Source of the DNA: Deltaproteobacteria bacterium
Lineage (GTDB): Bacteria; Myxococcota; XYA12-FULL-58-9; JAFGEK01
Direction: 5' to 3'
NCBI GenBank assembly: GCA_016931625.1
Contig: JAFGEK010000219.1
Span: forward strand, 24,124-88,123
Length of the DNA: 64,000 bases
Below the pieces are notes generated by a model. It was not told where the DNA came from, made no database searches, and worked only from the letters and a program-made list of their open reading frames with translations. This document shows positions 21,863-38,045 of this stretch, piece after piece. A program made the translations under genes and the position numbers. The stretch's first letter is position 1. Every line of letters begins with the position of its first letter.

Positions 21863-23215
21863 TTACACCTCATGTTCAAGTAAAAACTGCTCCATAGTTA
21901 CACCACTAATATTGCCAGCAGTAAATTTATCTTTATTTATAACCAGCAACTGAGCGTGTGGAAAGGTTTGTACAAACCAACTAAATTCAAATGCACTAGC
22001 TTGACCATGTTTAACCTCAATGAACTTTTTAGAGTTAATAACAAAATCAAGTTCATGCTTTTTAGTTTGCCAAAATGGCAAATGTTCGGGAACATCATCT
22101 CCACGCACTGCAGCACGACTCCATAATTCTTGTGCAACTAGCCATTCAAAATATTTGCCTAATATTTCATGTGGCATATTCGCAAAAGCTTTCACCGTAT
22201 TAGGTGCATTAGCACTAAAGGCGATAGCCGCAAGCAAATTAACAAAAGGAAATTTTGCTGGACGACGAGACTGCACCACATTTCGCGAGGCATCCCAGGA
22301 ACCTGATATACCCACAATCATTAGATCTGCCAATAATTCAAGATAACCAGCAGCAACCGTATTGTTAGCTAATCCGGCTTCACGCGCAATTTTTGCCTGA
22401 CCTATAGGAGTAGTAGCAAAACGCATTAATGTTTGCATTAAAGTTATTAAAGTTGCTCGTTGTCTACCACTAGCAGCACACTCACCAAAAACCCAATCAC
22501 GAATTGTAGCAGTAACATAAGTTGGCAAATGCTTCTCGTTAACTAATGCTATTGCTGCCATGGGACAGCCACCAGTTAACATGTAACCGAACAATGTATA
22601 CTCTTTTAATTCATCACCCATTACCCGTTTAAATTCTTTATAAGGTACTGGAGTAAACAAATACTGAGTTCGTTTTAAACGACCTTTACGTCCTGGCAAT
22701 CTCTCAGCTCCACGACGCAAATCAGTAGCTTTTGAGCCGGTTGTTACTAATAAAACATTTTTTAATTCACCAGCATCGAACAATCGCTTAACGGCTTTTT
22801 CCCAGTTATCTATTGCGGTGATCTCATCTATGAATATGCGTCGTACCGTAGCATCGCGATGAAACAAATTATTTAGAATATGTAATTCATTAGTTAAAAC
22901 ATCAGCATCAGCAATCCAATCACCATTTAAATAAAACGTCGATGCAGAACCATATTCTCTGGCACTTAGGTAAGCTTGCTGCTCAAGCCATGTGCTTTTA
23001 CCATACTGGCGCGGTCCTCTGATTTGAATCAAACCTGATTGAGTTGGTAACTCTGGTAATCCAAAATCAAAATGAAAAATTACTGGCGCTGTATTTAACT
23101 CATCAAGATGCGGAAATAGCCCTGATTGGTCTATATTTCCATTGATTAATAGACTATTTATTTCTCTAACGTTCATAACGTTAATTAATTTAACGTTATA
23201 AACGTTAATTGTCAA
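21863..23215 (-). CDS. AAA-type ATPase with DUF4143-like C-terminal region
   Basis: Walker A IRGPRQYGKSTWL and Walker B RIFIDEI. The C-terminal ELDFV...EVK pattern is typical of the AAA_14/DUF4143 orphan ATPases. The start (23215 or ATG 23176) is uncertain. Confidence 0.75.
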   Translation of the reverse strand: MTINVYNVKLINVMNVREINSLLINGNIDQSGLFPHLDELNTAPVIFHFDFGLPELPTQSGLIQIRGPRQYGKSTWLEQQAYLSAREYGSASTFYLNGDWIADADVLTNELHILNNLFHRDATVRRIFIDEITAIDNWEKAVKRLFDAGELKNVLLVTTGSKATDLRRGAERLPGRKGRLKRTQYLFTPVPYKEFKRVMGDELKEYTLFGYMLTGGCPMAAIALVNEKHLPTYVTATIRDWVFGECAASGRQRATLITLMQTLMRFATTPIGQAKIAREAGLANNTVAAGYLELLADLMIVGISGSWDASRNVVQSRRPAKFPFVNLLAAIAFSANAPNTVKAFANMPHEILGKYFEWLVAQELWSRAAVRGDDVPEHLPFWQTKKHELDFVINSKKFIEVKHGQASAFEFSWFVQTFPHAQLLVINKDKFTAGNISGVTMEQFLLEHEV

Positions 23216-27429: not shown

Positions 27430-27858
27430 TTATATTAGAGGGTTAAGCACTTGCATACCATCAAAGCGACTAAAATCACGGTCGCAAGTGCATAAAATGG
27501 CGCCATGTTCTATGGCAAGCGCGGCTAAATGAGCATCTGGTATGAGATTACCGTTGGCTTGACCATCTTGTATAAGCTTTTTAAAAATTTGCCAATGGCG
27601 ATTAGTCGGATGCAAATAATCAACCATTGGCCTCGCAAACCAACTCTCAACATGTTTAGCAGCATCAGCAATTAAAAAAGGCTTGTGCAATAAGCGGGGA
27701 TGAGTACTTATTCGTAAAAAAGCTAATACAGTTGACCATGCTAAACGTATTTGTCGGTCATTTGATAAACAATCTTCCCACCAATGACACGCTACTTTAT
27801 GAAAAGGCGAAATGCTATCATACACGTATAAAATAATATTAGCATCTACTAAATACAT
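27430..27858 (-). CDS. vapC: PIN-domain toxin (VapC family)
   Basis: MYLVDANIILY...IPDAHLAALAIEHGAILCTCDRDFSRF. It is preceded by an antitoxin gene with a 2-nt gap. Confidence 0.9.
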   Translation of the reverse strand: MYLVDANIILYVYDSISPFHKVACHWWEDCLSNDRQIRLAWSTVLAFLRISTHPRLLHKPFLIADAAKHVESWFARPMVDYLHPTNRHWQIFKKLIQDGQANGNLIPDAHLAALAIEHGAILCTCDRDFSRFDGMQVLNPLI

Positions 27859-27860
27859 TA

Positions 27861-28094
27861 TTACCGCTCAGCCATTTCTAATAATTCACCAATGTTGTCG
27901 TAAGATAATCCATCACGTAATCCTAGAGGTCGTGCTTGTACTTTAAAGCGCGGTAATGCTTTAAATGATTTTTTGCAAGTTAATCCATCACGTAACGTCT
28001 CATTAACTACTAGCTTGAATGATTTGCCACTTAGGCGACGACGCTCATCGAGCTTGGTGGCAATATCTTCATCGATGGTTAAAGTTGTGCGCAT
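27861..28094 (-). CDS. vapB: VapB-type antitoxin (MRTTLTIDED family)
   Basis: 77 aa. The N-terminus MRTTLTIDEDIATKLDERRR is typical of the VapB antitoxin family that pairs with this VapC type. Confidence 0.8.
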   Translation of the reverse strand: MRTTLTIDEDIATKLDERRRLSGKSFKLVVNETLRDGLTCKKSFKALPRFKVQARPLGLRDGLSYDNIGELLEMAER

Positions 28095-28214: not shown

Positions 28215-28745
28215 TTAAAAATAATACCTACCTCCAATGCCGCCCATTAAAGATGGGCCTAATCGTGGTAATAAAATTATTGACGGTACCAAGTCTACAT
28301 ACGCCTCTACCCTAGGCTTAGGAAAAAAGGCAGTAAAAGTAACAGGTACACGAAATATGATCCCGGCATTATCATCATAACAATAACGTCGGTTAAACCG
28401 ATCACGATAACAACCACCATCATGAATATAGCCAGCAGCGCCGCCCACCCCTGCAGTAAAATCAAAGCTAACTACTTGGGTACGCGCGTCAATATGTCCC
28501 ATTTGATGCTGCCAATCAGCAATAAAAATTGGACCAGAAGCACCATAGTAGGTCCCGGTCCAACCTAAAACAGCTTGCACCGCATCAGTATTGTTAAACC
28601 AGTACCTGCCAGTAAACCCAAAAGCTGGGTCGCCAAAATAAAGCCCTAAACCAAATTTGCGCTCGGGTAATTGTGCATGGGCGACTGAAGAAACCACAAA
28701 GGTTAAAAATATAAATAATAAGCAAGGTTTTAAAGCTTTGTTCAT
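28215..28745 (-). CDS. Small outer-membrane beta-barrel-like protein (hypothetical)
   Basis: The start is taken at MNKALKPCLLFIFLTFVVSSVAHA (signal peptide). The sequence has alternating Gly/aromatic-rich strands and a C-terminal ...GGRYYF (terminal Phe). Confidence 0.6.
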   Translation of the reverse strand: MNKALKPCLLFIFLTFVVSSVAHAQLPERKFGLGLYFGDPAFGFTGRYWFNNTDAVQAVLGWTGTYYGASGPIFIADWQHQMGHIDARTQVVSFDFTAGVGGAAGYIHDGGCYRDRFNRRYCYDDNAGIIFRVPVTFTAFFPKPRVEAYVDLVPSIILLPRLGPSLMGGIGGRYYF

Positions 28746-28791
28746 GATCGTGCAATTTACTACAACCGGTAGCAATATTTCAAAAGAGTTT

Positions 28792-29433
28792 TTAGTTTGC
28801 TTTTTCAATAGATGGTCGCAAAAGTCGTAAACCCAACAACGCACAACCGCTAGCCAAAATAAAAACACCAAAAACAGCAACGTACTCTGAAATCATGGGT
28901 CCAATTCCATATAAAACCACTCCTGTTAAAAATAATATTCCTGAAATTTTTGAAAACTCTCGCGAACGTATTAGAGCAATTGAAAAAGTAACAACGCCAA
29001 TTAACATTACAGCCAAAAACATATTCTGAAAAATTAGTATGCCCGTATCATTAAAATAAATTTTGCCACCAAAAAGGGGGTATAATAATTCATGCTTTGC
29101 TAACAGTGGAAATATAAGCAACGCCCAAGCGCTATTTGCTATCTGAAGTATATAAGCTAATGTTACAAAAACATACCCAATAAAGCCTAAAACACCTGAG
29201 CTACTATAAAATCGAGAATATATCGCAGCAAAACCAAAAACTAAAAAAAGTACAGCTAACAATGCTGTTAATTCTAACCAACAAAAATGAGGATTCAATA
29301 TTAACGGAGTTATATCACTACCATGTGCAAAATTTGGTAATAATATAGTATGCAAAATCGACCAGGCTGCTAATAAAACTGCGCCAATAATAACCGCGAA
29401 CCCACCAAGACGTTGGATTTTTTCTAATTTCAT
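28792..29433 (-). CDS. Polytopic membrane protein (hypothetical)
   Basis: The start is taken at MKLEKIQRLGGFAVIIG. About 6 hydrophobic helices. No family recognised. Confidence 0.5.
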   Translation of the reverse strand: MKLEKIQRLGGFAVIIGAVLLAAWSILHTILLPNFAHGSDITPLILNPHFCWLELTALLAVLFLVFGFAAIYSRFYSSSGVLGFIGYVFVTLAYILQIANSAWALLIFPLLAKHELLYPLFGGKIYFNDTGILIFQNMFLAVMLIGVVTFSIALIRSREFSKISGILFLTGVVLYGIGPMISEYVAVFGVFILASGCALLGLRLLRPSIEKAN

Positions 29434-29514
29434 TGAGTTATTAGCTCCTTTTCTCAAACCAGTTGTGCTAATACAAAACACAACAATTTATATTACTATT
29501 GGGAAAAAGAATCA

Positions 29515-32337
29515 ATGTCGCCTATTGAACCTCGTAATTTATCAAACAAATTTCTTTCTGTACAGCAATGGACGCAACTAACTATAGCCAATGCTGCTGC
29601 TACCCTGCAAAGTAACCTTAAAAATGGGATCAGCTCTAACCAAGCCAGTGAACGCCAAAAGCATTACGGCTTAAACACCTTGCAAGAAAAAGGCAACAAG
29701 TCGCCTTTGCGTGTAATATTAGATCAGTTCGCCAATACTTTAGTCATCGTTCTCATTATCGCCGCCGTGATTTCAGCCGTTGCTGGCAGTCTTAAAGATG
29801 CTATCGCCATTGTTGCCATTGTTACTCTCAATGCTGTACTTGGCTTCATTCAAGAAATTAGAGCCGAACGGGCCATAGCCGCGCTACGCCAGTTAGCTAT
29901 ACCTAAAACACGGGTGCGACGCGATGGTATTGTTGTTGAAATCTCTTCAAGCGAATTAGTCCCTGGTGATATTGTTTTGCTTGAAGCTGGTAATCTGGTG
30001 CCTGCAGACGGCCGAATAATTGAATCTGCCAGTATGCGTATTGCCGAAGCTATGCTTACCGGGGAGTCAGAACCTATTGAAAAACAAACTGAAACTATAC
30101 CAGGCAAAAATGCCTTAGCGCTTGGTGATCAAGTCAATATGGCTTTTATGGGCACTAGCGTTACTTTTGGCCGAGGGCAAATATTAGTTACCGCAACAGG
30201 AATGAATACTGAACTTGGCAAGGTTGCTAATCTAATTCAAAATGTTGGACAAGTTATTACTCCGCTACAACATCGTCTCAATAGATTAGGGCGCATTTTA
30301 GCAATCGCGGCATTTTGTGTAGTTGCAGTTATTTTTATTTTCGGCTTACTGTTTGGTCACGATTGGAAATTGATGTTTATGACTGCAGTAAGTATGGCTG
30401 TTGCTGTAATACCCGAGGGTCTCCCAGCAGTTGTTACTATTGCTTTGGCACTTGGGGCTCAACGAATGTTACATCGAAATGCACTAATACGACGCTTACC
30501 TGCAGTTGAAACATTGGGTTCAGTTAGTGTTATATGTTCAGACAAAACTGGTACCCTTACTGAAAATCGTATGAAGGTAAGTGTGCTAGATCTCGCTGGG
30601 CATCGAATTGATATCTCTGAAGAACTAAAACATCGCCAGCCCATAACTATAGCCAATAAGAAAACCTCAACACTTATTAATGATGAACCATCTCTTGCCC
30701 TATTATTAATGAGTGGCAGCTTATGTAATGATGCTACGCTGCAAATTGATCGCGGCAGACCAGGCCATTATCGTGCTGTTGGTGATCCAACTGAAGGTGC
30801 CTTGGTTATAGCAGCAGCACATTTTAACTTACTTCGCGATCAACTTGATCTTGATTTCCCTCGTATCAATGAAGCGCCTTTTGACTCAGAACGTAAACGC
30901 ATGAGCACCATGCATAGTATTGTTAATCCATCAGCTTGGTTTTCGACCAATACTCTAAATCATAACAGTAAGTTCGTAGTATTTACCAAAGGCGCCGTTG
31001 ATAGTCTGCTTACTGTATGTTCTCATGTCTTATATGAAAACCAGGTGGTGCATTTAGATGATGCTTGGCGAAATAAAATTACTGCTACTAATAATGAACT
31101 TGCACGAGATGGTATACGAGTTCTTGGTATTGCATATCGATTAGCTGCAAATGAAGAATCCGATAAAAAGCTTACGGCAACGCAGCTTGAGCGCAATTTA
31201 ATATTTATTGGTCTGGTTGGTATGCTCGACCCACCACGTAGCGAAGTAAAACAAGCTGTGGCTACTTGCCAAAGCGCTGGTATTCGCCCCGTAATGATAA
31301 CTGGTGACCATCCCGTTACTGCGCGTCGTATTGCTGCTGATTTAAATATTTTAGGTACCGGACAAGTTATTACCGGCCCCGAATTATTAGGCATCTCACC
31401 GGCACAGCTTGATAAATTAGTAAATCAAGTATCGGTATATGCTCGTGTCGCTCCCGAACAAAAATTACGTATTGTAGAAGCTCTACAAAGACAGGGGCAT
31501 GTTGTCGCTATGACTGGTGATGGCGTTAACGATGCTCCAGCTTTGCGCCGCGCCGATATTGGAGTAGCGATGGGTATTACTGGTACTGATGTCGCTAAAG
31601 AAGCCGCAGCAATGGTATTAGTTGATGATAACTTTGCCACTATAGTTGCCGCAGTTGAAGAAGGTCGTTCTATTAACGATAATATTCGTAGGTTTCTAAA
31701 ATTCTCGCTTGCTGGCAATCTTGCCAAGCTATTATTAGTATTTGTTGGACCACTTTTAGGTATGCCCCTGCCTTTAACTCCATTTCAAATTCTTTGGCTT
31801 AACTTAGTCACTGATGGTGTACTAGGTTTAGGTATTGGGGTCGAACCCTCCGAACCTGATGTTATGCAACGTAAGCCACAAAAATCCTCCGAAGGTATTT
31901 TAGCTCATGGTTTAGGCATACAAATTATTTGGCAAGGTTTGCTAATGGGAATAGTTAGTATTGCTGTCGGTTGGTGGGCTTTTAGTACCAAACAACCACA
32001 ATGGCAAACTCTCGTGCTCACCACCGTAGTTCTACTGCAAATATTTCAAGCACACGCTAGTCGTTCTTCGCAACAAAGTGTTTTTAAACAAAATCCATTT
32101 TCAAATAAGCCATTGTTAGGTGCAACTTTATTACTTATAATTTTACAAGCCGCAGTGATCTATATTTCACCTTTACATAATATCTTTGCCACTTTATCTA
32201 TGTCCGCAAAACAAGTTGGCATTTCATTTCTTGCAGGACTAGTTGTGCTGATTGTAGTAGAAATATTTAAAAGTCTTATCAATTATAGAAAAATAAAGAA
32301 AAAATCTAATAATTTCCTGAATGCTGCTATTGAGTAA
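29515..32337 (+). CDS. Cation-transporting P-type ATPase, type IIA (SERCA/Ca2+-ATPase-like)
   Basis: Motifs TGES, PEGLPAV (M4), CSDKTGTLT, MITGDH and GDGVNDAPAL. 940 aa with Cation_ATPase N- and C-terminal regions. Confidence 0.93.
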   Translation: MSPIEPRNLSNKFLSVQQWTQLTIANAAATLQSNLKNGISSNQASERQKHYGLNTLQEKGNKSPLRVILDQFANTLVIVLIIAAVISAVAGSLKDAIAIVAIVTLNAVLGFIQEIRAERAIAALRQLAIPKTRVRRDGIVVEISSSELVPGDIVLLEAGNLVPADGRIIESASMRIAEAMLTGESEPIEKQTETIPGKNALALGDQVNMAFMGTSVTFGRGQILVTATGMNTELGKVANLIQNVGQVITPLQHRLNRLGRILAIAAFCVVAVIFIFGLLFGHDWKLMFMTAVSMAVAVIPEGLPAVVTIALALGAQRMLHRNALIRRLPAVETLGSVSVICSDKTGTLTENRMKVSVLDLAGHRIDISEELKHRQPITIANKKTSTLINDEPSLALLLMSGSLCNDATLQIDRGRPGHYRAVGDPTEGALVIAAAHFNLLRDQLDLDFPRINEAPFDSERKRMSTMHSIVNPSAWFSTNTLNHNSKFVVFTKGAVDSLLTVCSHVLYENQVVHLDDAWRNKITATNNELARDGIRVLGIAYRLAANEESDKKLTATQLERNLIFIGLVGMLDPPRSEVKQAVATCQSAGIRPVMITGDHPVTARRIAADLNILGTGQVITGPELLGISPAQLDKLVNQVSVYARVAPEQKLRIVEALQRQGHVVAMTGDGVNDAPALRRADIGVAMGITGTDVAKEAAAMVLVDDNFATIVAAVEEGRSINDNIRRFLKFSLAGNLAKLLLVFVGPLLGMPLPLTPFQILWLNLVTDGVLGLGIGVEPSEPDVMQRKPQKSSEGILAHGLGIQIIWQGLLMGIVSIAVGWWAFSTKQPQWQTLVLTTVVLLQIFQAHASRSSQQSVFKQNPFSNKPLLGATLLLIILQAAVIYISPLHNIFATLSMSAKQVGISFLAGLVVLIVVEIFKSLINYRKIKKKSNNFLNAAIE

Positions 32338-32382
32338 TCGTTATATATTAAGCTAGTGTAACTCTGTAAATGAGGAGTCTTA

Positions 32383-33558
32383 ATGCTGACTCAAGTATGG
32401 TTTAAAAACTACAAAGGTCTCCGTGATATTAAGCTTAATTTAGGCAGATTTAATGTCCTAGTCGGACCAAATGCTTGTGGTAAAACCTCTGTACTTGATG
32501 CCATTCGACAATTATCAATGGTTACATATAGGGATCCCTCTTTAGTATTTAATGGTTTATGGGATAAACGTGTTCTTTACAATCAAACTGCAAAGTCAAA
32601 TACCATTTCTATTGGTGCTATCGGTGAAATGTTCAATAATGATATAAAATCAAACATAAAAGTTGAAGTTACTATTGATGTTGCCGCAAAACCACGTCCA
32701 TTGCGTAAAGATGGCAATATAGATGGCCCTGATGGTGCTTTTAGTGTAGAAGCGGAGATTAATGATAAACCTCTAAATATCCCTAAAGGTCATCAAATTA
32801 ATTGGGAATCTGCAGCTCATCCATTAGTCGAAGCTTTAAATTCTTCATATTTAAGACTTGATTATTTTAAACTTGCTGAACCAACATACTCAGATAGTAT
32901 TATTCCTCAGTTAGAAGCTGGTGGTTTTGGTCTTGCTACAGTATTAAATAATATGCAAGCAAGTAACCCATCTGAATTTTCACAACTTATAGAAGATGTA
33001 TGTTCAGTTGTACCTATAATAACATCAATTAGAACAACTAGAGTCCCTTTAAAAATAACCCGTCCACAAACTATTACTATTAATGGTCAAACTATAACTA
33101 ATGAAATTAAAGAAGATGTAATCGGGCATCAAATATTACTCGATACTCAGTATGCCAAAAATATCCCTCCAAGTGGTATAAGCGAAGGTACTCTAATTGT
33201 ACTTGGTATTCTTACTGAATTACATTCACAACCTTATGCAAAATTATTATTGCTTGATGATATTGAGCATGGCCTACATCCTAAAGCACAAAAAAATTTA
33301 ATTGACCTATTACGGATTATACTTAATAAAAATTCTGATCTGCAAATAATCGCGACCTCTCATTCACCCTATCTTATAGACTCTCTTGAGCCTAGCGAAG
33401 TAATACTTTTTGATATTGGTGATGAAGGAGAAAGTATTGCTAAGCGTTTAATTGATCATCCAGATCATAAACATTGGCTTGAAACTATGACACCTGGTGA
33501 ATTTTGGAGTTTTGCTGGTGAATCATGGGTAAAAGGTAAACAAGATAAGGATAAATAA
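32383..33558 (+). CDS. ABC/AAA_21-type ATPase (OLD/AriA-like ATPase component)
   Basis: Walker A GPNACGKTS, signature-like GISEGT, Walker B LLLLDDIEHGLHP and H-loop ATSHSP. GAGGAG RBS. Confidence 0.8.
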   Translation: MLTQVWFKNYKGLRDIKLNLGRFNVLVGPNACGKTSVLDAIRQLSMVTYRDPSLVFNGLWDKRVLYNQTAKSNTISIGAIGEMFNNDIKSNIKVEVTIDVAAKPRPLRKDGNIDGPDGAFSVEAEINDKPLNIPKGHQINWESAAHPLVEALNSSYLRLDYFKLAEPTYSDSIIPQLEAGGFGLATVLNNMQASNPSEFSQLIEDVCSVVPIITSIRTTRVPLKITRPQTITINGQTITNEIKEDVIGHQILLDTQYAKNIPPSGISEGTLIVLGILTELHSQPYAKLLLLDDIEHGLHPKAQKNLIDLLRIILNKNSDLQIIATSHSPYLIDSLEPSEVILFDIGDEGESIAKRLIDHPDHKHWLETMTPGEFWSFAGESWVKGKQDKDK

Positions 33559-33560
33559 AA

Positions 33561-34325
33561 ATGAATGGGGGAATTTTTTTAAAATTCGGACTCGTTTGTG
33601 AAGGCAAAGGTGATGCAAGAACGATACCTTTAATTGTGTGGAGAGTTCTTTGTCATCAATTTGATTACCTTACTGATTATGATCCCTCATGCATTTCATG
33701 GCGCGGCCTTTCATCAAATAAAAATTATCTTCCTTGGGCACAAGTAAAAAGGATTTTTAAACTATCTAACTTAAAAATACATGGTAATTTTTCTGGTACT
33801 AGATCTACTGAATTTGTCAGTGCCCGTAAAGCATTGCTACTAATGCAAAAGGCTCATCATTCTGAGCCTATAGATCTTGTCTTTCTTATACGCGATGCTG
33901 ACAAACTACCAGAGCAAAGATATGATGCATTAATTAATGCTTGTAATTCTTTTAAGTATCCCTTTTTCGTTGCTGTAGGTGTACCAATTGCCAAACGTGA
34001 ATGTTGGGTTTTAGCTACTATTACCATTGAAATTGAAGATTTCGATTCACAATTGAAAACGAAAATAGCACAATTAGAAAAGGACCTTGGATTCAATCCT
34101 ATTTTTAATTCACATCGTCTAAATGCTTCAGAGCCTAATGCCAAACGAAGTGCTAAGCGAGTCTTAAACCTATTAACAGATGATAATATTGCCCTTGAAG
34201 ATACATGGATTAGTTCTGCGACACCTGAAATCTATATTAATCGAGGTATTAAAAATGGCCTCGCAATGTTTGTTCAAAATATTAAGAAACAACTGAGTCA
34301 ATTATATAAAAAAAGAAAAATATGA
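33561..34325 (+). CDS. Putative TOPRIM-like partner protein (DUF4276/DUF4435-like), function unknown
   Basis: Its ATG is 2 nt after the ATPase stop. The motifs GLVCEGKGD (E), LIRDADK (DxD) and AKRECWVLA (E) appear in the order expected for a Toprim fold. This assignment comes from motifs only. Confidence 0.45.
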   Translation: MNGGIFLKFGLVCEGKGDARTIPLIVWRVLCHQFDYLTDYDPSCISWRGLSSNKNYLPWAQVKRIFKLSNLKIHGNFSGTRSTEFVSARKALLLMQKAHHSEPIDLVFLIRDADKLPEQRYDALINACNSFKYPFFVAVGVPIAKRECWVLATITIEIEDFDSQLKTKIAQLEKDLGFNPIFNSHRLNASEPNAKRSAKRVLNLLTDDNIALEDTWISSATPEIYINRGIKNGLAMFVQNIKKQLSQLYKKRKI

Positions 34326-34426
34326 CCGATACACAATAAATTTAACTTGCTGCTAAATCTCAGTTTTCTGAGACATGATGGAAATATCAAGTTTATCGGT
34401 TGATAACAAACCTTAGATTATTCGCC

Positions 34427-36397
34427 ATGGAGCTACCTTTGAACAGTATAATCGGTCAAAGCCTTATTTGGATAGCAATGATTGCTGCTTTCGCCGGAGT
34501 GCTATTAGGTTTTGTAACCGGCAAAAATCCTAGTCGCACTTCTATGCAATGGCTTTATCGGTTGGTGATGATTTTTTCGGGGGCCATGGTTGCTGCTAAT
34601 GTTGTTATGGTAACTGCTCTTATAACCCATGACTTTTCTGTTAGTTATGTTGCTAAAGTTGGTAGCCGCTCAACTCCATTATCAATTACTATTGTATCTT
34701 TATGGTCAGCCCTTGAAGGTTCACTTCTATTTTGGGGCTTTATACTAGCTTTAGTTGTTGTCGCTTTTGCCCATATATGGCGCAAAAATTCTCCCCGACA
34801 TATGGCATATGCTATCGGCACAATTCTTACGGTTTCACTTTTTTTTGCAATAATTATTGTTGGTCCGGCAAATCCGTTTACCGTCTTATCGCCGATACCC
34901 TTTGACGGCCCAGGACCAAATCCACTTTTGCAAAACCATCCATTAATGATTATTCACCCGCCACTACTATACTGTGGCTATGTTGCAATGGTGCTACCGT
35001 TTGCAATTGCTATTGCAGTCTTGCTAGCTGGTGAAACCAATTGGCCTTGGCTAAACATGCTACGTCAAACAATGCTAATTGCTTGGGGCTTTCTTGGCCT
35101 CGGTATTCTTACTGGGAGTTGGTGGTCATATGAAATATTAGGTTGGGGTGGTTATTGGTCTTGGGATCCCATAGAAAACGCTTCACTTATTCCTTGGCTA
35201 ACGGCAACTGCTTGCCTACATGCAATTATAATTCAAAAACGCCAAAAGTTTTTAGCATTGTTAACATTAGCCTTAGCTATTATTACTTTTCTATTAACTA
35301 TTTTCGGTACCTTTATAACTCGTAGTGGTATTATTAATTCCGTACATGCCTTTACTCAATCAACTATTGGTCCCACATTTCTTGCCTTTTTAGGGGTTAT
35401 ATCAATAGCTTCTTTAGCTTTACTCAGTAAACGTAATGTTCTTAACTCATCAACTATATCAACTACTAAATCTTATACGCTATTATCAAAACCTACTTTG
35501 CTTCTTATGGTTATTGCATTATTACTAACTTTTGCTTTTACCATACTTCTTGGCACTATATTTCCGTTATTTACTGAATTTATGCGTGGGGTTAAAATTT
35601 CAGTTGGCGCCCCTTATTTTAATAACATGTCTGTGCCCATTGTTATTTGCTTACTTATAATCTTAGCACTTAGTTACTTCGCCCCCTTCGAAGAAGTAAA
35701 AATAATTCACCCAAATTTTTTACTTATTTCATTATTTATCTCCAGTATAACATTTATTCTATTTTTGTTAACCGGCATCCGCCCCATATTTGCCGATTTT
35801 ATTTTTTCACTTTGTGCTTTTGCTGCAACTGGTATCTTACTAAGTTTTACTTATGTATTCTCAATCAATAAAATTGATAGTACTGAAAACAAAAACCATC
35901 GATGTTGGTCTAAATATTTTTTAACTCGTTTCTTAGGGATGCAGCTAATTCATCTTTCTTTTATTATCATTGTTGCTGCAGTCTGTGGTTCGCATTTTTA
36001 TAAACAAACTTACGAGTTCTCACTTACACCAGGGTCAAACCAATCCATTAACAATTATAAACTCACTTATGTAAAAGCATCGTTGTTAAAAGAACCACAT
36101 CGCCAAGCAATAAATACAAAAATTAAACTTGAACAAAATAACAAAATTTTCTCTTTTTTATATCCATCACTAGTTTATTACCAAACTCAACGTGAACCTC
36201 TTGGTGTACCTCATATTTTGACTATTAATTACCGCGATTTATATTTATCACTTATATCGTTCAACCATGACGATAATAAAGCTTCGTTTAAATTTTTTAT
36301 CATTCCACTTATTTCTTGGTTATGGTTGACTATACCGCTAATAGGTGTTGGAACTATTTTGTTGATAAGTTTTAAAAATAAATCTTCCGTAGACTAA
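34427..36397 (+). CDS. ccmF: Cytochrome c-type biogenesis protein CcmF (heme lyase)
   Basis: WWD/W-rich motif WWSYEILGWGGYWSWDPIENASLIPWL. Polytopic. The start is taken at the ATG at 34427 (MELPLN). Confidence 0.92.
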   Translation: MELPLNSIIGQSLIWIAMIAAFAGVLLGFVTGKNPSRTSMQWLYRLVMIFSGAMVAANVVMVTALITHDFSVSYVAKVGSRSTPLSITIVSLWSALEGSLLFWGFILALVVVAFAHIWRKNSPRHMAYAIGTILTVSLFFAIIIVGPANPFTVLSPIPFDGPGPNPLLQNHPLMIIHPPLLYCGYVAMVLPFAIAIAVLLAGETNWPWLNMLRQTMLIAWGFLGLGILTGSWWSYEILGWGGYWSWDPIENASLIPWLTATACLHAIIIQKRQKFLALLTLALAIITFLLTIFGTFITRSGIINSVHAFTQSTIGPTFLAFLGVISIASLALLSKRNVLNSSTISTTKSYTLLSKPTLLLMVIALLLTFAFTILLGTIFPLFTEFMRGVKISVGAPYFNNMSVPIVICLLIILALSYFAPFEEVKIIHPNFLLISLFISSITFILFLLTGIRPIFADFIFSLCAFAATGILLSFTYVFSINKIDSTENKNHRCWSKYFLTRFLGMQLIHLSFIIIVAAVCGSHFYKQTYEFSLTPGSNQSINNYKLTYVKASLLKEPHRQAINTKIKLEQNNKIFSFLYPSLVYYQTQREPLGVPHILTINYRDLYLSLISFNHDDNKASFKFFIIPLISWLWLTIPLIGVGTILLISFKNKSSVD

Positions 36398-36423
36398 ATA
36401 ATTAACTAAAAAGGACTAATATA

Positions 36424-36954
36424 ATGAATTGGCGACTGTTTAGTATTACGAGCATTGCAGTCGTATTTTTATTAGTAATTTTATTTATGGGTTTTTTTTA
36501 TGACCCTCATGCAGTACCTTCTGTTTTAGTCAATAGACCCGCACCATCATTTTCACTTATTGAACACCAAGGTACAAATTGGAATTTACTTCAAAACCAA
36601 GGCAAACCTATCGTTATCAATTTTTGGGCAAGTTGGTGTCAACCTTGTATTGACGAATTGGCAACACTTGCAAAATTATCACAAGACTATAAAGAACGGA
36701 TAACTTTCATAGGTATTCTATATCAAGACACTACTGAAAATGCGCAAGCAATATTACATGAATATTCTCAATATTTTCCACAATTACTAGACCACGCCGG
36801 TCTTGTTGCAATTGATTATGGGGTAGCTGGCATACCAGAAAGTTTTATCATCGATAGTAAAGGTATTATTCGCCAAAAAATCGTTGGCATTATTAACCCT
36901 GATCAATTACGCCATGATCTTGACATATTACTAATGAGTAATTCGACGCCATGA
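36424..36954 (+). CDS. ccmG: Thiol:disulfide oxidoreductase CcmG/DsbE (TlpA family)
   Basis: TM anchor, FWASWCQPC (CxxC) and GIPESFIID. It sits between ccmF and ccmH. Confidence 0.88.
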   Translation: MNWRLFSITSIAVVFLLVILFMGFFYDPHAVPSVLVNRPAPSFSLIEHQGTNWNLLQNQGKPIVINFWASWCQPCIDELATLAKLSQDYKERITFIGILYQDTTENAQAILHEYSQYFPQLLDHAGLVAIDYGVAGIPESFIIDSKGIIRQKIVGIINPDQLRHDLDILLMSNSTP

Positions 36955-38045
36955 ATATATATTTTATTATTACCCTTTGCTTAACTGCAAATCTCAACTC
37001 TACAAATGCAAATAATATTCATCCAGTTAATCCTGTAATTGAGCAAATTGGCCGTGAGCTACGCTGTCCGGTATGCCAAGGAGTGCCAATTGGTGAATCA
37101 CCGGCACCAATGGCCCATTCAATGATGCATAAAGTACGTGAACTACACGCTCAAGGAAAATCCCGTGAAGAAATATTACAATACTTTGTTGAACGATATG
37201 GTGAATGGGTATTGCTTAACCCAACCACCAAAGGCATTAATTGGCTGCTATGGCTATTACCACTTATAATTTTTATATTTTCAATATCGGCAATCTATTT
37301 TTATATTTCAACTCAAAAAAAAGTTGATCGCATAAATCAATCAATAACTCATAACACCGCCGCAAAAGAGCAAAATACTTATAATAACAACGCATCGGCT
37401 AACAATATAACTATTTCATCATTACCAAAGCACAAACATTTCGTCAAATTATTACCATTTGCTATTTATTTTCTTTTGCTACTAGGTTTTGTATTATTTT
37501 CTTTATATACATCTTTATTTTCTTCAAAATCATCTTCATCAGATCAATCGGTTAAGCAACAAAATTCTTCCTCCTCACTACCTCCGCTTTTTATTACTGC
37601 CGCACCTATTGATGCGAATGAATGGCAAAATTTAATTGATAAAATATCAAAAGAACCAAATAATGTTGATTTATTAGTAAGAATGGGACATTTGTTGATC
37701 ATTGATAGAATGTATGAAGAAGCACAACTTGTTACTGAACGAGCTTTAAAAATAAATAGCAGCAATTTTGAAGCTCGCATTCATGCTGCCGCGCTAATCG
37801 CGCTTACTGATCCTCAGACCGCACTCAATAAGCTTTATGAATTGTTACAAACTAATCCCAACTTTGCTAATGGTTGGTTACTGCATGGTACTATTAGTAT
37901 GTGGTCAGGTCATATTGACCTTATGTATGATAGCTTTAACAAATATATAGAAACTGCCCCTGATGGAAATGATAAAACCTTTATTATAAATATGCTGCAA
38001 CAACTAAAATCTACTAGTCGCTTTTCGCGGCCCCACAAGAATTAA
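36951..38045 (+). CDS. ccmH: CcmH with C-terminal TPR (CcmI-like) extension
   Basis: LRCPVCQGVPIGESP (CcmH CxxC motif), a TM segment, a low-complexity Ser/Asn linker, then TPR-like repeats. Confidence 0.85.
   Translation: MNIYFIITLCLTANLNSTNANNIHPVNPVIEQIGRELRCPVCQGVPIGESPAPMAHSMMHKVRELHAQGKSREEILQYFVERYGEWVLLNPTTKGINWLLWLLPLIIFIFSISAIYFYISTQKKVDRINQSITHNTAAKEQNTYNNNASANNITISSLPKHKHFVKLLPFAIYFLLLLGFVLFSLYTSLFSSKSSSSDQSVKQQNSSSSLPPLFITAAPIDANEWQNLIDKISKEPNNVDLLVRMGHLLIIDRMYEEAQLVTERALKINSSNFEARIHAAALIALTDPQTALNKLYELLQTNPNFANGWLLHGTISMWSGHIDLMYDSFNKYIETAPDGNDKTFIINMLQQLKSTSRFSRPHKN

What the first reader, a model, noticed from the sequence alone, without database searches (positions are those of the whole stretch)
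32383..34325. AT-rich two-gene module: ABC/AAA_21-type ATPase plus small TOPRIM-like protein inserted between a P-type ATPase and ccmF (candidate defence system)
Two genes separated by 2 nt sit between unrelated housekeeping genes.
- Gene 1 (391 aa) is a soluble ABC-fold ATPase. It has Walker A GPNACGKTS, a signature-like ISEGT, Walker B LLLLDDIEHGLHP and H-loop ATSHSP. A long insertion lies between Walker A and the signature, as in OLD/AriA/GajA-type ATPases.
- Gene 2 (254 aa) has no obvious family. It carries an acidic triad in the order typical of Toprim nucleases: GLVCEGKGD (Glu), LIRDADK (DxD) and AKRECWVLA (Glu).
- By eye the pair is noticeably more AT-rich than its flanks.
The architecture is a split OLD-family nuclease, as seen in PARIS (AriA/AriB) and in AAA_21+DUF4276 pairs. 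However, gene 2 is shorter than, and divergent from, what I remember of those families. This is my best candidate in the window for an undescribed or poorly described anti-phage/anti-MGE module.
Basis: partly seen in the sequence, partly recalled or inferred. Interest (0 to 1): 0.75.

Follow-up and report, generated by a model that had tools for sequence, protein, structure and literature searches.

The report
ATPase plus nuclease-like candidate defence pair
Two tightly coupled genes, an ABC-type ATPase and a small protein with the catalytic residues of an OLD-type nuclease, form an accessory module belonging to an uncatalogued branch of a well-known class of bacterial anti-virus systems; its role is plausible but untested.

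Summary
Gene 1 (32383-33558) is an AAA_21 ABC ATPase. Gene 2 (33561-34325) starts 2 nt after gene 1's stop codon and matches no curated family.

- **Family size.** Gene 2 belongs to an uncurated family of about 1,400 clusters at 50% identity. It occurs mainly in Myxococcota, Planctomycetota and Acidobacteriota.
- **Pairing.** The same ATPase partner lies directly upstream in essentially every locus with room to show it.
- **Active site.** The conserved residues E14, D18, D112-x-D114, E147 and K199 match, in order, the two-metal active site of OLD nucleases.
- **Homology.** Profile comparison links gene 2 to PADLOC's untested candidate PDC-M25B (95% probability). Links to HEC-01B and DUF4276 are weaker.
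- **Fold.** Foldseek did not recover a Toprim fold from a high-confidence model.
- **Defence context.** One family member sits inside a complete BREX system. Another sits next to a second ATPase plus small-partner module that resembles HEC-01.
- **Accessory status.** Related genomes lack the pair at the same site. In two lineages long direct repeats bracket the roughly 2-kb module.
- **This window.** The pair breaks the usual ccmABCE-ccmF gene order. No close relative of the host exists to prove an insertion.

Verdict: a new family-level variant of the known split ATPase-plus-nuclease defence architecture. Moderate interest; function is inferred, not shown.

The parts
32372..32377 (+). Shine-Dalgarno-like GAGGAG, 5 nt upstream of the gene 1 ATG
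   Evidence: Read directly from the sequence.
32383..33558 (+). Gene 1: soluble ABC-type ATPase, 391 aa, Pfam AAA_21
   Evidence: ORF. AAA_21 E=3.5e-32 over residues 23-333. A homologue lies directly upstream of every full-length gene 2 homologue.
32464..32487 (+). Walker A, residues G28-T35 (GPNACGKT)
   Evidence: G28, N30, G33 and K34 are invariant in 49 family members.
33181..33192 (+). ABC signature-like S267-E-G-T270
   Evidence: G269 is 49/49 and T270 is 48/49.
33244..33282 (+). Walker B L288-D293 followed by I-E-H-G-L-H-P (to residue 300). The catalytic-base position is Asp (D293), not Glu.
   Evidence: D292 is 49/49. D293 is D in 46/49 and E in 3/49. L298, H299 and P300 are 49/49. The comparator ATPases have E at position 293.
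33355..33369 (+). H-loop, T325-S-H-S-P329
   Evidence: T325, H327, S328 and P329 are 49/49.
33561..34325 (+). Gene 2: 254-aa protein from an uncurated family. It has an N-terminal alpha/beta domain carrying an OLD-like acidic motif set, and a C-terminal helical domain.
   Evidence: ORF. The family has 1,417 clusters at 50% identity. AF2 model pLDDT 93. hhalign to the PDC-M25B family gives 95.3% probability, E=2.3e-8.
33600..33614 (+). Codons for E14-G-K-G-D18 (ExxxD), directly after strand beta1
   Evidence: E14 is at least 90% conserved and D18 is invariant in 146 sequences. Beta1 spans residues 7-13. Corresponds to E400/E404 of BpOLD (PMC6755086).
33891..33902 (+). Codons for R111-D112-A-D114 (RDxD), directly after strand beta3
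   Evidence: D112 is invariant; R111 and D114 are at least 90% conserved. Beta3 spans residues 106-110. Corresponds to D455/D457 of BpOLD.
33996..34007 (+). Codons for R146-E147-C-W149, at the start of the helix after beta4
   Evidence: E147 and W149 are invariant. The helix spans residues 146-151. Aligns with SEAW of PDC-M25B and EAW of DUF4276 and the HEC-01B-like protein. Corresponds to E508 of BpOLD.
34149..34163 (+). Codons for S197-A-K199-R-V201 in the C-terminal helical domain (invariant lysine)
   Evidence: K199 is invariant in 146 sequences. Aligns with APK of PDC-M25B and NPK of DUF4276. Candidate counterpart of K562 of BpOLD.
32279..32301 (+). Left copy of an imperfect 23-nt direct repeat, within the 3' end of the P-type ATPase gene
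   Evidence: the repeat finder family D3. The 19/23 match was not reached in 300 shuffles or in 293 random window pairs. Post hoc and A-rich, so only suggestive.
34298..34320 (+). Right copy of the same repeat, within the 3' end of gene 2 and in a different reading frame. Spacing is 2,019 nt.
   Evidence: The spacing resembles that of the long bracketing repeats in L004 (2,073), L030 (2,047) and L026 (2,070).

Best explanation
The two genes form a self-contained accessory module of the 'ABC ATPase plus Toprim-type nuclease' kind. This is the same general design as OLD, PARIS, HEC-01, PDC-M25 and MAD3/MAD4, here split across two translationally coupled genes.

**Proposed mechanism**
1. Gene 1 makes an ATP-binding ABC head that dimerises or oligomerises and holds or regulates gene 2.
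2. Its catalytic-base position is Asp rather than Glu in 94% of the family. This suggests a slow ATP switch rather than a motor.
3. Gene 2 is a metal-dependent nuclease. Its active site would be built from E14 and D18 (after beta1), D112-x-D114 (after beta3), E147 (start of the helix after beta4) and K199 from the C-terminal helical domain. This is the same ordered set as the two-metal site of Burkholderia OLD.
4. On a trigger, most likely a phage or mobile-element product, the ATPase licenses the nuclease to cut DNA or tRNA. That stops the invader or the infected cell.

**Shown:** the gene pairing, motif conservation, remote homology to candidate defence components, defence-embedded relatives, and accessory, cassette-like behaviour in other lineages.

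**Inferred:** complex formation, nuclease activity, the trigger, the substrate and the defence phenotype.
For: - **Obligate pair.** A gene 1 homologue lies directly upstream of gene 2 homologues in essentially all of 71 genome loci and the metagenome contigs. The commonest junctions are 4- and 8-nt overlaps, and the gap in the window is 2 nt.
- **ATPase.** AAA_21 at 113 bits. All nucleotide-binding motifs are conserved. The best solved relatives by sequence are the OLD nuclease 6P74 and the retron/Septu PtuA ATPases.
- **Gene 2 active site.** D18, D112, E147, W149 and K199 are invariant, and E14, R111 and D114 are at least 90% conserved, in 146 sequences averaging about 30% identity. Their positions relative to the predicted strands reproduce BpOLD E400/E404, D455/D457, E508 and K562 (PMC6755086).
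- **Homology.**
  - hhalign of the gene 2 family against the PDC-M25B family gives 95.3% probability, E=2.3e-8, over 190-222 columns, with every motif aligned.
  - 36 of 146 members weakly hit HEC-01B models, 21 hit PDC-M25B, 9 hit PDC-M31B and 1 hits mad4.
  - The Pfam sub-threshold hits that recur or name a Toprim family are RloB, DUF3226, DUF4276 and OLD-like_TOPRIM.
  - A HEC-01B-like protein in L032 matches DUF4276 (58%) and the gene 2 family (45%) about equally.
  - The literature places HEC-01B, DUF4276 and RloB in the Toprim superfamily.
- **Defence context.**
  - In L068 the pair sits between PglX and PglZ of a complete BrxC-PglX-PglZ-BrxL system.
  - In L032 a second ATPase plus small-partner module that resembles HEC-01 lies 0.5 kb away.
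  - One HEC-01 representative protected E. coli from phage (PMC12881386).
- **Accessory behaviour.**
  - The pair occurs in 71 of about 185,600 species genomes.
  - It is absent downstream of orthologous ABC-F genes in 7 related Myxococcaceae, whose ABC-F is 73-91% identical.
  - Some loci carry decayed copies.
  - Direct repeats of 32-76 nt bracket the roughly 2-kb module in L004 and in two Cystobacter fuscus strains.
- **In the window.** The pair interrupts the ccmA-B-C-E-F order seen in 15-16 of 16 Myxococcota relatives. It also has the lowest GC3 in the window.
Against: - Foldseek found no Toprim protein, or any hit at E<=0.001, in the PDB or BFVD. This holds for both the full-length model and the isolated N-terminal domain.
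- Sequence and profile searches of the PDB found nothing.
- Direct hhalign of the gene 2 family against DUF4276 is insignificant (0.7%).
- No curated model reaches threshold for gene 2.
- Most family loci have ordinary neighbours. Only a few of about 70 are next to known defence genes.
- In Myxococcaceae the pair has a stable position after a housekeeping ABC-F gene.
- The family is absent from 72,556 plasmids and 50,697 phage records.
- In this window there is no neighbouring defence gene, integrase or transposase.
- The closest named candidate, PDC-M25, is itself untested. HEC-01 gave no protection in its original screen.
- The Asp at the Walker B catalytic position could mean the ATPase is a poor enzyme.
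Confidence: 0.6

Rival explanations
1. The pair is a selfish addiction (toxin-antitoxin-like) module with no role against phages. Gene 2 would be a toxic nuclease kept in check by the gene 1 ATPase, and the module would persist because losing it kills the cell.
For: - A tight two-gene operon with overlapping or near-overlapping reading frames.
- Cassette-like insertions flanked by direct repeats.
- Patchy distribution and decayed copies.
- Mostly non-defence neighbourhoods.
- A VapBC-like pair lies 4.5 kb away in the same window.
Against: - BREX-embedded and defence-adjacent members.
- Its closest relatives were nominated specifically through defence embedding.
- In the analogous PARIS system, the same 'ATPase restrains nuclease' logic serves defence.
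- The family is absent from plasmids, where addiction modules are usually abundant.
Confidence: 0.15
2. The pair is a lineage-restricted DNA-repair or genome-maintenance system. It would be an SMC/RecF/SbcC-like ABC ATPase working with a nuclease on chromosomal DNA, not a conflict system.
For: - Gene 1 also matches SMC_N at 40.1 bits, marginally above the cut-off of 40, and weakly matches RecF models.
- Its position after ABC-F is stable across Corallococcus, Archangium and Cystobacter.
- In the window it sits among core chromosomal genes, on the same strand as its neighbours, with no terminator-like site on that strand in either spacer and no promoter excess above chance.
- It is absent from plasmids and phages.
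Against: - It is present in only about 0.04% of species genomes.
- It is missing at the same site in close relatives.
- Several genomes carry frameshifted or truncated copies.
- One member is embedded in BREX.
- Insertion footprints are present.
- All weak family links point to defence-type partner proteins.
Confidence: 0.1
3. Gene 2 is not a Toprim-type nuclease. It would be a different alpha/beta fold whose conserved acidic residues bind a metal or nucleotide for another activity, for example a phosphatase, a nucleotide-modifying enzyme or a non-catalytic adaptor. The OLD-like motif match would then be coincidental.
For: - The models are confident (pLDDT 93 and 88), yet no Toprim structure appears in the top Foldseek hits.
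- The matches are generic Rossmann-like proteins with TM scores of 0.39 or lower.
- hhalign to DUF4276 is insignificant.
- There is a roughly 45-residue insertion between beta2 and beta3 (residues 49-105) relative to canonical Toprim.
Against: - Six conserved residues occur in the same order and at the same secondary-structure positions as the OLD active site.
- The E147-to-K199 spacing of 52 residues is close to the 54 residues between E508 and K562 in BpOLD.
- The homology chain to PDC-M25B, the HEC-01B-like protein and DUF4276 aligns exactly these motifs.
- The literature describes the OLD Toprim itself as having 'altered architecture', which could defeat Foldseek.
Confidence: 0.15

Closest known systems
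PADLOC candidate PDC-M25 (PDC-M25A ATPase plus PDC-M25B), e.g. the pair between brxC and pglX on Oceanisphaera sp. IT1-181 plasmid pA
   Same: - The same two-gene layout: an ATPase of about 385-390 aa followed within a few nt by a partner of about 250 aa.
- The B proteins are homologous at profile level: 95.3% probability, E=2.3e-8, with the E, DxD, E-x-W and K motifs aligned.
- Both families have BREX-embedded members.
   Different: - PADLOC's PDC-M25B models do not detect the window's gene 2 at E<=1.
- Gene 1 scores 90 bits on PDC-M25A, against 524 bits for a true member.
- The hosts differ: Gammaproteobacteria for PDC-M25, against Myxococcota, Planctomycetota and Acidobacteria here.
- PDC-M25 is itself untested.
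HEC-01 (ABC ATPase plus TOPRIM-domain protein; Payne et al. preprint) and the related AAA_21 plus DUF4276 pairs / MADS MAD3-MAD4
   Same: - An AAA_21-type ATPase plus a small partner with an E...D...E-x-W...K pattern.
- Gene 1's best specific PADLOC hits are HEC-01A models at about 100 bits.
- Up to 36 of 146 gene 2 relatives weakly hit HEC-01B.
- A HEC-01B-like protein in L032 bridges DUF4276 and the gene 2 family.
   Different: - The window's gene 2 hits no HEC-01B, mad4 or DUF4276 model.
- It is about 50 residues longer than DUF4276 proteins (254 against about 200 aa).
- It carries a full RDxD motif where this DUF4276 subfamily has W-D-L.
- NCBIfam MAD3 scores 92.7 bits against a cut-off of 420.
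OLD-family nucleases (classes 1 and 2; e.g. Burkholderia pseudomallei OLD 6NK8, Thermus scotoductus OLD 6P74)
   Same: - An ABC ATPase combined with a nuclease whose site uses ExxxE/D, DxD, a Glu at the start of the first helix after the sheet, and a Lys from a C-terminal helical domain.
- 6P74 is gene 1's best solved match by sequence.
   Different: - OLD is a single polypeptide, whereas here there are two genes.
- The Pfam OLD-like_TOPRIM model hits only 1 of 146 relatives, at E=0.05.
- Foldseek did not retrieve OLD structures.
- No UvrD-type helicase neighbour is present.
PARIS (AriA ABC ATPase plus AriB DUF4435 Toprim nuclease)
   Same: A split ATPase plus Toprim-type effector encoded by adjacent genes. 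It offers a model mechanism in which the ATPase scaffold releases the nuclease on sensing a phage trigger.
   Different: - AriB is a DUF4435 protein of about 35 kDa. Neither gene 2 nor any of 146 relatives hits DUF4435.
- The PADLOC 'AriA' hit (PDLC02980) spans the same residues (23-333) and the same 304 model positions as the Pfam AAA_21 hit, so it looks like a generic AAA_21-type match rather than an AriA-specific one.
- PARIS is common on phage satellites, whereas this family is absent from phage and plasmid records.

Membership tests
AAA_21 ABC ATPases (Pfam PF13304) | Full-length match above the Pfam gathering score | tested here: met
   113.1 bits against a cut-off of 27; residues 23-333 cover model positions 1-304.
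AAA_21 ABC ATPases (Pfam PF13304) | Walker A, ABC signature, Walker B and H-loop all present and conserved | tested here: met
   Invariant G28/N30/G33/K34, G269, D292 and T325/H327/S328/P329 in 49 family members. The catalytic-base position is Asp in 46/49.
Toprim superfamily (gene 2) | Conserved Glu at the end of beta1 and DxD after beta3, in a beta-alpha repeat of four strands | tested here: met
   AF2/DSSP gives beta1 at 7-13 followed by E14, beta3 at 106-110 followed by R111-D112-x-D114, and beta4 at 136-140. Conservation is shown.
Toprim superfamily (gene 2) | Three-dimensional similarity to solved Toprim domains | tested here: not met
   Foldseek against the PDB gave no hit at E<=0.001 and no Toprim protein in the top 50, for both the full-length and N-domain models. 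Strand order and residue clustering could not be checked because model coordinates are not exposed.
Toprim superfamily (gene 2) | Significant sequence or profile match to a curated Toprim-clan family (Toprim, OLD-like_TOPRIM, DUF4435, RloB, DUF4276) | tested here: inconclusive
   - Only sub-threshold Pfam hits: RloB in 5/146 members (best 1.5e-4), DUF3226 in 3, DUF4276 in 2, OLD-like_TOPRIM in 1.
- hhalign to DUF4276 gives 0.7%.
- The indirect chain via PDC-M25B gives 95% and then 41%; via a HEC-01B-like protein it gives 45% and 58%.
OLD-family nucleases | ATPase and Toprim nuclease fused in one polypeptide | tested here: not met
   Two separate ORFs with a stop codon and a 2-nt gap. The split form holds in all loci examined.
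OLD-family nucleases | Two-metal active-site residue set (E, E/D+4, DxD, E after beta4, Lys in the helical domain) | tested here: met
   E14, D18, D112, D114, E147 and K199 are conserved in the same order as BpOLD E400, E404, D455, D457, E508 and K562. This is a sequence-level match only; the geometry was not tested.
PARIS (AriA/AriB) | Effector is a DUF4435-type Toprim protein (AriB) | tested here: not met
   No DUF4435 or AriB hit for gene 2 or for any of 146 relatives.
PARIS (AriA/AriB) | ATPase matches an AriA-specific model over its full length | tested here: inconclusive
   PDLC02980 scores 109 bits, but over the same residues (23-333) and the same 304 model positions as the Pfam AAA_21 hit, so it looks generic. 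PDLC02979 scores 87 bits in two pieces.
PADLOC PDC-M25 | Both proteins detected by the PDC-M25A and PDC-M25B models | tested here: not met
   Gene 1 scores 89.7 bits (partial) against 524 bits for the Oceanisphaera member. Gene 2 has no hit at E<=1. The B families are nevertheless homologous by hhalign.
PADLOC HEC-01 / MADS MAD3-MAD4 (AAA_21 plus DUF4276-like) | The B protein is detected by HEC-01B, mad4 or DUF4276 models, and the A protein reaches the family cut-off | tested here: not met
   Gene 2 has no hit. NCBIfam MAD3 scores 92.7 bits against a cut-off of 420. HEC-01A scores about 100 bits in two pieces, against 169 bits for the ATPase of an Anabaena AAA_21 plus DUF4276 pair used here as comparator.
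Anti-phage defence system (operational definition) | Genomic association with known defence systems | tested here: inconclusive
   The family includes one BREX-embedded member (L068) and one beside a HEC-01-like module (L032). Most of about 70 loci, and the window itself, show no defence neighbours.
Anti-phage defence system (operational definition) | Experimental protection against phage or plasmid | not testable with these tools
No paper in the library tests this family or PDC-M25. HEC-01 gave mixed results.

The most novel reading that the evidence does not exclude
The roughly 2-kb pair is a recombinase-less, self-contained defence cassette. It would insert at the 3' ends of resident genes, duplicating 20-76 nt of the target so that the host gene's end and terminator are preserved, and it would be moved in trans by an unidentified recombinase. 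Its effector would be a strongly remodelled Toprim-like nuclease whose fold has no recognisable neighbour among solved structures.
Probability: 0.15. Interest if true: 0.65.

Novelty: new variant of a known kind. Interest (0 to 1): 0.42.

Why it matters
[quoted passage not shown] The catalogues, however, are built mostly from Proteobacteria and Firmicutes.

This family has about 1,400 clusters at 50% identity and lives mainly in Myxococcota, Planctomycetota and Acidobacteria. No curated model in Pfam, NCBIfam or PADLOC recognises the window's gene 2 protein, so current annotation tools would probably miss the pair.

If it is functional, it would:
- extend the OLD-like class into under-sampled phyla;
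- supply a compact system with a natural Asp-for-Glu Walker B variant, useful for studying how the ATPase gates the nuclease;
- offer, through the repeat-bracketed copies, a possible example of how small defence cassettes move without their own recombinase.

If it is not functional in defence, it is simply another uncharacterised accessory ATPase-nuclease pair.

Tried and rejected
- **Fold searches.** Foldseek of the full-length gene 2 model against the PDB and BFVD, and of the N-terminal domain model against the PDB, gave no significant hit. Matches were only generic Rossmann-like proteins.
- **PDB sequence searches.** Sequence and profile searches with gene 2 and with the A2, A4 and A5 alignments found nothing relevant.
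- **Direct link to DUF4276.** hhalign of the gene 2 family against DUF4276, and a merged gene 2 plus PDC-M25B profile against DUF4276, were both insignificant at 0.7%.
- **Insertion test against sister genomes.**
Nothing closer than 39% (genome collection) or 45% over short segments (metagenome collection) turned up.
  - All seven window proteins checked are singleton clusters at 90% identity.
  - No true empty site could therefore be found. Only distant synteny was available.
- **tblastx synteny** between high-GC myxobacterial loci was unusably noisy. It was replaced by protein-anchored comparisons.
- **Promoter and terminator scans** around the pair gave counts no higher than shuffled sequence.
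- **Plasmid and phage searches** with gene 2 gave no match.
- **A conserved third gene** was sought next to the pair across phyla and not found. The recurrent ABC-F neighbour is lineage-specific synteny, and the 'mad3/mad8/AriA' PADLOC hits on it appear to be generic ABC cross-matches.
- **Flanking repeats as a universal feature** was considered and rejected. Strong repeats occur in only 3 of 54 loci tested, from two lineages.
- **Model coordinates** are not exposed to scripts, so 3D clustering of the conserved residues could not be measured.


Full report

Yes. ORF listing shows gene 1 at 32383-33558 (+, 391 aa) and gene 2 at 33561-34325 (+, 254 aa). Gene 1's TAA is at 33556-33558 and gene 2's ATG at 33561.

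A GAGGAG ribosome-binding site lies 5 nt before gene 1's ATG. An AAGGA lies 9 nt before gene 2's ATG, inside gene 1's 3' end.

Upstream on the same strand is a 940-aa P-type cation ATPase. Downstream, after a roughly 100-nt spacer, are ccmF (called start 34427), a CcmG-like thioredoxin and a CcmH-TPR protein.

The wider window is ordinary chromosome. It encodes DnaB, HtpG, complex-I-like and Mrp subunits, and one tRNA-Gln.

The AT-richness claim is half right:
- Gene 1 has the lowest GC (0.338) and GC3 (0.163) of 55 ORFs.
- Gene 2 has GC 0.341 and GC3 0.208.
- The window means are 0.409 and 0.300.
- The ccm genes just downstream are almost as AT-rich (GC 0.342-0.355).
- Codon-usage distance is unremarkable.

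**2. What the two proteins are**

*Gene 1* is a clear AAA_21 ABC ATPase. It scores 113 bits against a cut-off of 27 and also matches AAA_15.

In PADLOC it hits a generic AAA_21-type model labelled AriA. It also hits HEC-01A, PDC-M25A, mad3 and PDC-M07A at about 87-103 bits. True members score several hundred bits, for example 524 bits for a real PDC-M25A.

NCBIfam MAD3 gives 92.7 bits against a cut-off of 420. The nearest solved structures by sequence are the Thermus OLD nuclease and the retron/Septu PtuA ATPases.

Across 49 partner ATPases, Walker A, the S-E-G-T signature, Walker B, the L-H-P element and the H-loop are invariant or nearly so.

One family-specific feature stands out. The residue after the Walker B aspartate is normally the catalytic glutamate. 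Here it is Asp in 46 of 49 members, while the comparator ATPases keep Glu.

*Gene 2* matches no curated family. Pfam gives only DUF3226 at 17.4 bits against a cut-off of 27, and NCBIfam and PADLOC give nothing.

It is not an orphan, however:
- A word-indexed search found 37 clusters.
- A full profile search of 1.84 billion representatives found 1,417 clusters at E<=0.001 and 637 at E<=1e-30. Those listed are nearly all about 240-260 aa.

In a 146-sequence alignment averaging about 30% identity to the window protein, D18, D112, E147, W149 and K199 are invariant. E14, R111 and D114 are at least 90% conserved. The window copy retains all of them.

**3. Is gene 2 a Toprim nuclease?**

The evidence points in different directions, and I keep the strands separate.

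*For.* The AlphaFold model is confident (pLDDT 93, pTM 0.90) and shows:
- beta1 (residues 7-13) followed by E14-x-x-x-D18;
- beta3 (106-110) followed by R-D112-x-D114;
- beta4 (136-140) followed by a helix that starts with E147;
- a C-terminal helical domain carrying K199.

The two-metal site of Burkholderia OLD has the same order of elements: E400, E404, D455-x-D457, E508 at the start of the first helix of the helical domain, and K562 (PMC6755086). The E147-to-K199 spacing is 52 residues, against 54 for E508-to-K562.

Family-wide scans support this:
- The Pfam sub-threshold hits that recur or name a Toprim family are RloB (5 members), DUF3226 (3), DUF4276 (2) and OLD-like_TOPRIM (1). The rest of the list is scattered, mostly single-member noise.
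- PADLOC hits cluster on HEC-01B (up to 36 of 146 members per model), PDC-M25B (21), PDC-M31B (9) and mad4 (1).

I built comparator profiles from two plasmid-borne pairs found with gene 1. The results were:
- The gene 2 family aligns to the PDC-M25B family with 95.3% probability, E=2.3e-8, over 190-222 columns. All four motifs are in register.
- PDC-M25B aligns to DUF4276 at 41%, E=2.8e-4.
- A HEC-01B-like protein next to the pair in locus L032 matches DUF4276 at 58% and the gene 2 family at 45%, again across the RDxD, E-x-W and K motifs.

Published work places HEC-01B, DUF4276 and RloB in the Toprim superfamily.

*Against.*
- Foldseek found no hit at E<=0.001 in the PDB or BFVD for the full-length model.
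- It found none in the PDB for a separately modelled N-terminal domain with pLDDT 88.
- The top matches are generic Rossmann-like proteins with TM scores of 0.39 or lower.
- PDB sequence and profile searches were empty.
- Direct hhalign to DUF4276 is insignificant.
- I could not obtain model coordinates to test whether the conserved residues cluster.

*My reading.* Gene 2 is most likely a strongly diverged Toprim-type nuclease with an OLD-like site. It carries a roughly 45-residue insertion between beta2 and beta3. This rests on motif logic and homology chains, not on a demonstrated fold match.

**4. The pair as a unit, and its context elsewhere**

A degenerate-pattern scan of 185,579 species genomes returned 71 loci. 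By my tally of the record titles:
- about 30 are from Myxococcota;
- about 32 are from Planctomycetota;
- 7 are from Acidobacteriota;
- one is a Sumerlaeota MAG and one an Alcaligenaceae MAG.

A gene 1 homologue lies immediately upstream in essentially every locus with room for it. The same holds on the metagenome contigs. The commonest junctions are 4- and 8-nt overlaps. Several copies are decayed, either split or truncated, for example in Sorangium So ce56.

No third gene is conserved across phyla. Most nearest neighbours are ordinary genes.

In Corallococcus, Archangium and Cystobacter the pair always follows a housekeeping ABC-F gene. That neighbour explains the generic 'mad3/mad8/AriA' cross-hits in PADLOC.

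Genuine defence context exists in a minority of loci:
- In L068, a Pirellula MAG, the order is BrxC, PglX, ATPase, gene 2 homologue, PglZ, BrxL, all on one strand.
- In L032, a second ATPase plus small-partner module that resembles HEC-01 lies 0.5 kb downstream.

The nearest named relative, PDC-M25, is itself defined by embedding in BREX.

The family is absent from the plasmid and phage collections. These collections contain few elements from the host phyla.

**5. Accessory and cassette-like behaviour**

Seven other Myxococcaceae or Archangiaceae genomes have orthologous ABC-F genes (73-91% identical) but lack the pair downstream. Among pair-bearing genomes, the distance to the next conserved gene varies from 0.3 to 5.6 kb.

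In Cystobacter fuscus Cbf 10 (L030), the last 21 nt of ABC-F, including its TGA, plus the following GC-rich hairpin, are repeated 34 nt after the gene 2 stop. This is a 76-nt repeat at 84% identity with 2,047-nt spacing.

Two further loci show the same kind of bracketing:
- Strain NCWS (L026) has a 32-nt exact repeat.
- The metagenome contig L004 has a 57-nt repeat, 40 nt of it exact, with 2,073-nt spacing. The repeat contains a promoter-like TTGACC-N17-TACAGT.

The other loci show only short matches: 15 of 54 have any hit, against 3 in a displaced control. Bracketing repeats are therefore an occasional footprint, not a defining feature.

**6. The window locus itself**

No sister genome exists in the data:
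- The best CcmF identity is 39% in the genome collection and up to 45% over short segments in the metagenome collection.
- Seven window proteins, including DnaB and HtpG, are singleton clusters at 90% identity among 15 billion sequences.

The best CcmH-like matches are Myxococcota MAGs. The host is therefore probably a deep, unusually low-GC (about 40%) member of that phylum.

About 60 distant relatives have a ccmF-G-H cluster, and none has the pair or a P-type ATPase in the upstream sequence available. In 15-16 of 16 Myxococcota relatives, ccmA, ccmB, ccmC and ccmE directly precede ccmF. No ccmB, ccmC or ccmE is detectable anywhere in the 64-kb window. The pair thus sits exactly where the canonical operon is broken.

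A 23-nt imperfect direct repeat (19/23) lies at the 3' end of the ATPase gene (32279-32301) and at the 3' end of gene 2 (34298-34320). The two copies are in different reading frames and 2,019 nt apart. The match exceeds all 300 shuffles and all 293 random window pairs. However, it is A-rich and was noticed post hoc.

Together with the lowest GC3 in the window, this is consistent with an old insertion. It does not prove one.

Promoter and terminator scans show nothing above chance, and no terminator-like site lies on the + strand in either spacer. Co-transcription with the neighbouring genes is therefore possible.

**7. Mechanism and comparison with known systems**

The best-supported model is a split OLD-like module. 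An ABC ATPase would act as sensor or gate, possibly as a slow ATP switch given the Asp at the catalytic-base position. It would control a two-metal nuclease effector.

The analogies are OLD and Gabija, which nick or degrade DNA, and PARIS, in which AriA releases AriB to cut tRNA. The substrate, the trigger and the phenotype are all inferred.

The module is not a member of PARIS, OLD, MADS, HEC-01 or PDC-M25 by any model threshold. It is a remote sister of PDC-M25 and HEC-01.

The experimental record for that neighbourhood is thin:
- HEC-01 gave no protection in its original screen.
- A different HEC-01 representative protected against at least one phage in a later study.
- PDC-M25 has no report in the searchable library.

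**8. Verdict**

This is a real, conserved, accessory two-gene module. It is a new family-level variant of a well-known architecture, with reasonable but indirect support for a defence role.

Interest is moderate. A specialist would not be surprised by another ATPase-plus-Toprim pair. The points worth follow-up are:
- the family's size;
- its invisibility to current models;
- its host range;
- the Walker B variant;
- the repeat-bracketed copies.

Noticed in passing
window 27430-28094 (- strand): A VapBC-like toxin-antitoxin pair lies 4.5 kb upstream of the finding. It consists of a 142-aa PIN-domain protein (27430-27858; Pfam PIN E=1.5e-10) and, 2 nt upstream of it, a 77-aa ORF (27861-28094) that looks like its antitoxin.
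   Followed up: partly
window 34400-38045, compared with loci L320-L334, L347, L357 and L377: The window has ccmF, ccmG and ccmH but no detectable ccmB, ccmC or ccmE anywhere in 64 kb. In 15-16 of 16 Myxococcota relatives, ccmA-B-C-E directly precede ccmF (CcmE, CcmB and CcmC confirmed by Pfam in a representative locus). The cytochrome c maturation operon is therefore split in this genome, at the point where the P-type ATPase and the pair sit.
   Followed up: partly
window 32279-32301 and 34298-34320: A 23-nt imperfect direct repeat (19/23, in different reading frames, 2,019 nt apart) brackets the module. The match exceeds all shuffles and all random window pairs, but it is A-rich and was found post hoc. 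It could be an insertion scar.
   Followed up: partly
L030 6740-6815 and 8787-8862; L026 6791-6822 and 8861-8892; L004 455-511 and 2528-2584: In two Cystobacter fuscus strains and in an unrelated metagenome contig, long direct repeats (76, 32 and 57 nt) bracket the roughly 2-kb two-gene module. In L030 the repeat is the last 21 nt of the upstream ABC-F gene, including its stop codon, plus the terminator-like hairpin. There is no recombinase gene inside the bracketed segment.
   Followed up: partly
L068 10-13166: A Pirellula MAG carries a complete type 1 BREX cluster (BrxC, PglX, PglZ, BrxL) with the ATPase plus gene 2 homologue pair embedded between PglX and PglZ.
   Followed up: yes
L032 9191-11268 (- strand): In Corallococcus llansteffanensis a second ABC ATPase (481 aa) plus a 211-aa HEC-01B/DUF4276-like partner lies 0.5 kb downstream of the pair, in the opposite orientation. 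Two related systems sit side by side in a variable region.
   Followed up: partly
window 33259-33261 (gene 1 codon D293): The Walker B catalytic-base position is Asp instead of Glu in 46 of 49 ATPases of this family, while the PDC-M25A and DUF4276-partner ATPases have Glu. This may mean slow ATP hydrolysis.
   Followed up: partly
whole window: Seven proteins, including DnaB and HtpG, are singleton clusters at 90% identity among about 15 billion sequences. The nearest CcmF and CcmH relatives are only about 40-57% identical and come from Myxococcota MAGs. The host appears to be a deep, poorly sampled lineage with an unusually low GC (about 40%) for that phylum.
   Followed up: partly
window 21863-23215 (- strand): A 450-aa AAA_14 plus DUF4143 ATPase, a family of unknown function. 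It was not examined further.
   Followed up: no
L059, L066, L067, L074, L032, L041: Several genomes, for example Sorangium cellulosum So ce56, carry frameshifted, split or truncated copies of the ATPase or of gene 2. This is consistent with decay of a dispensable module.
   Followed up: no
window 28215-29481 (- strand): Two ORFs of 221 and 229 aa overlap by about 90 nt (28215-28880 and 28792-29481). The second is very AT-rich (GC 0.341) and looks like a membrane protein. Start-codon assignment is uncertain.
   Followed up: no
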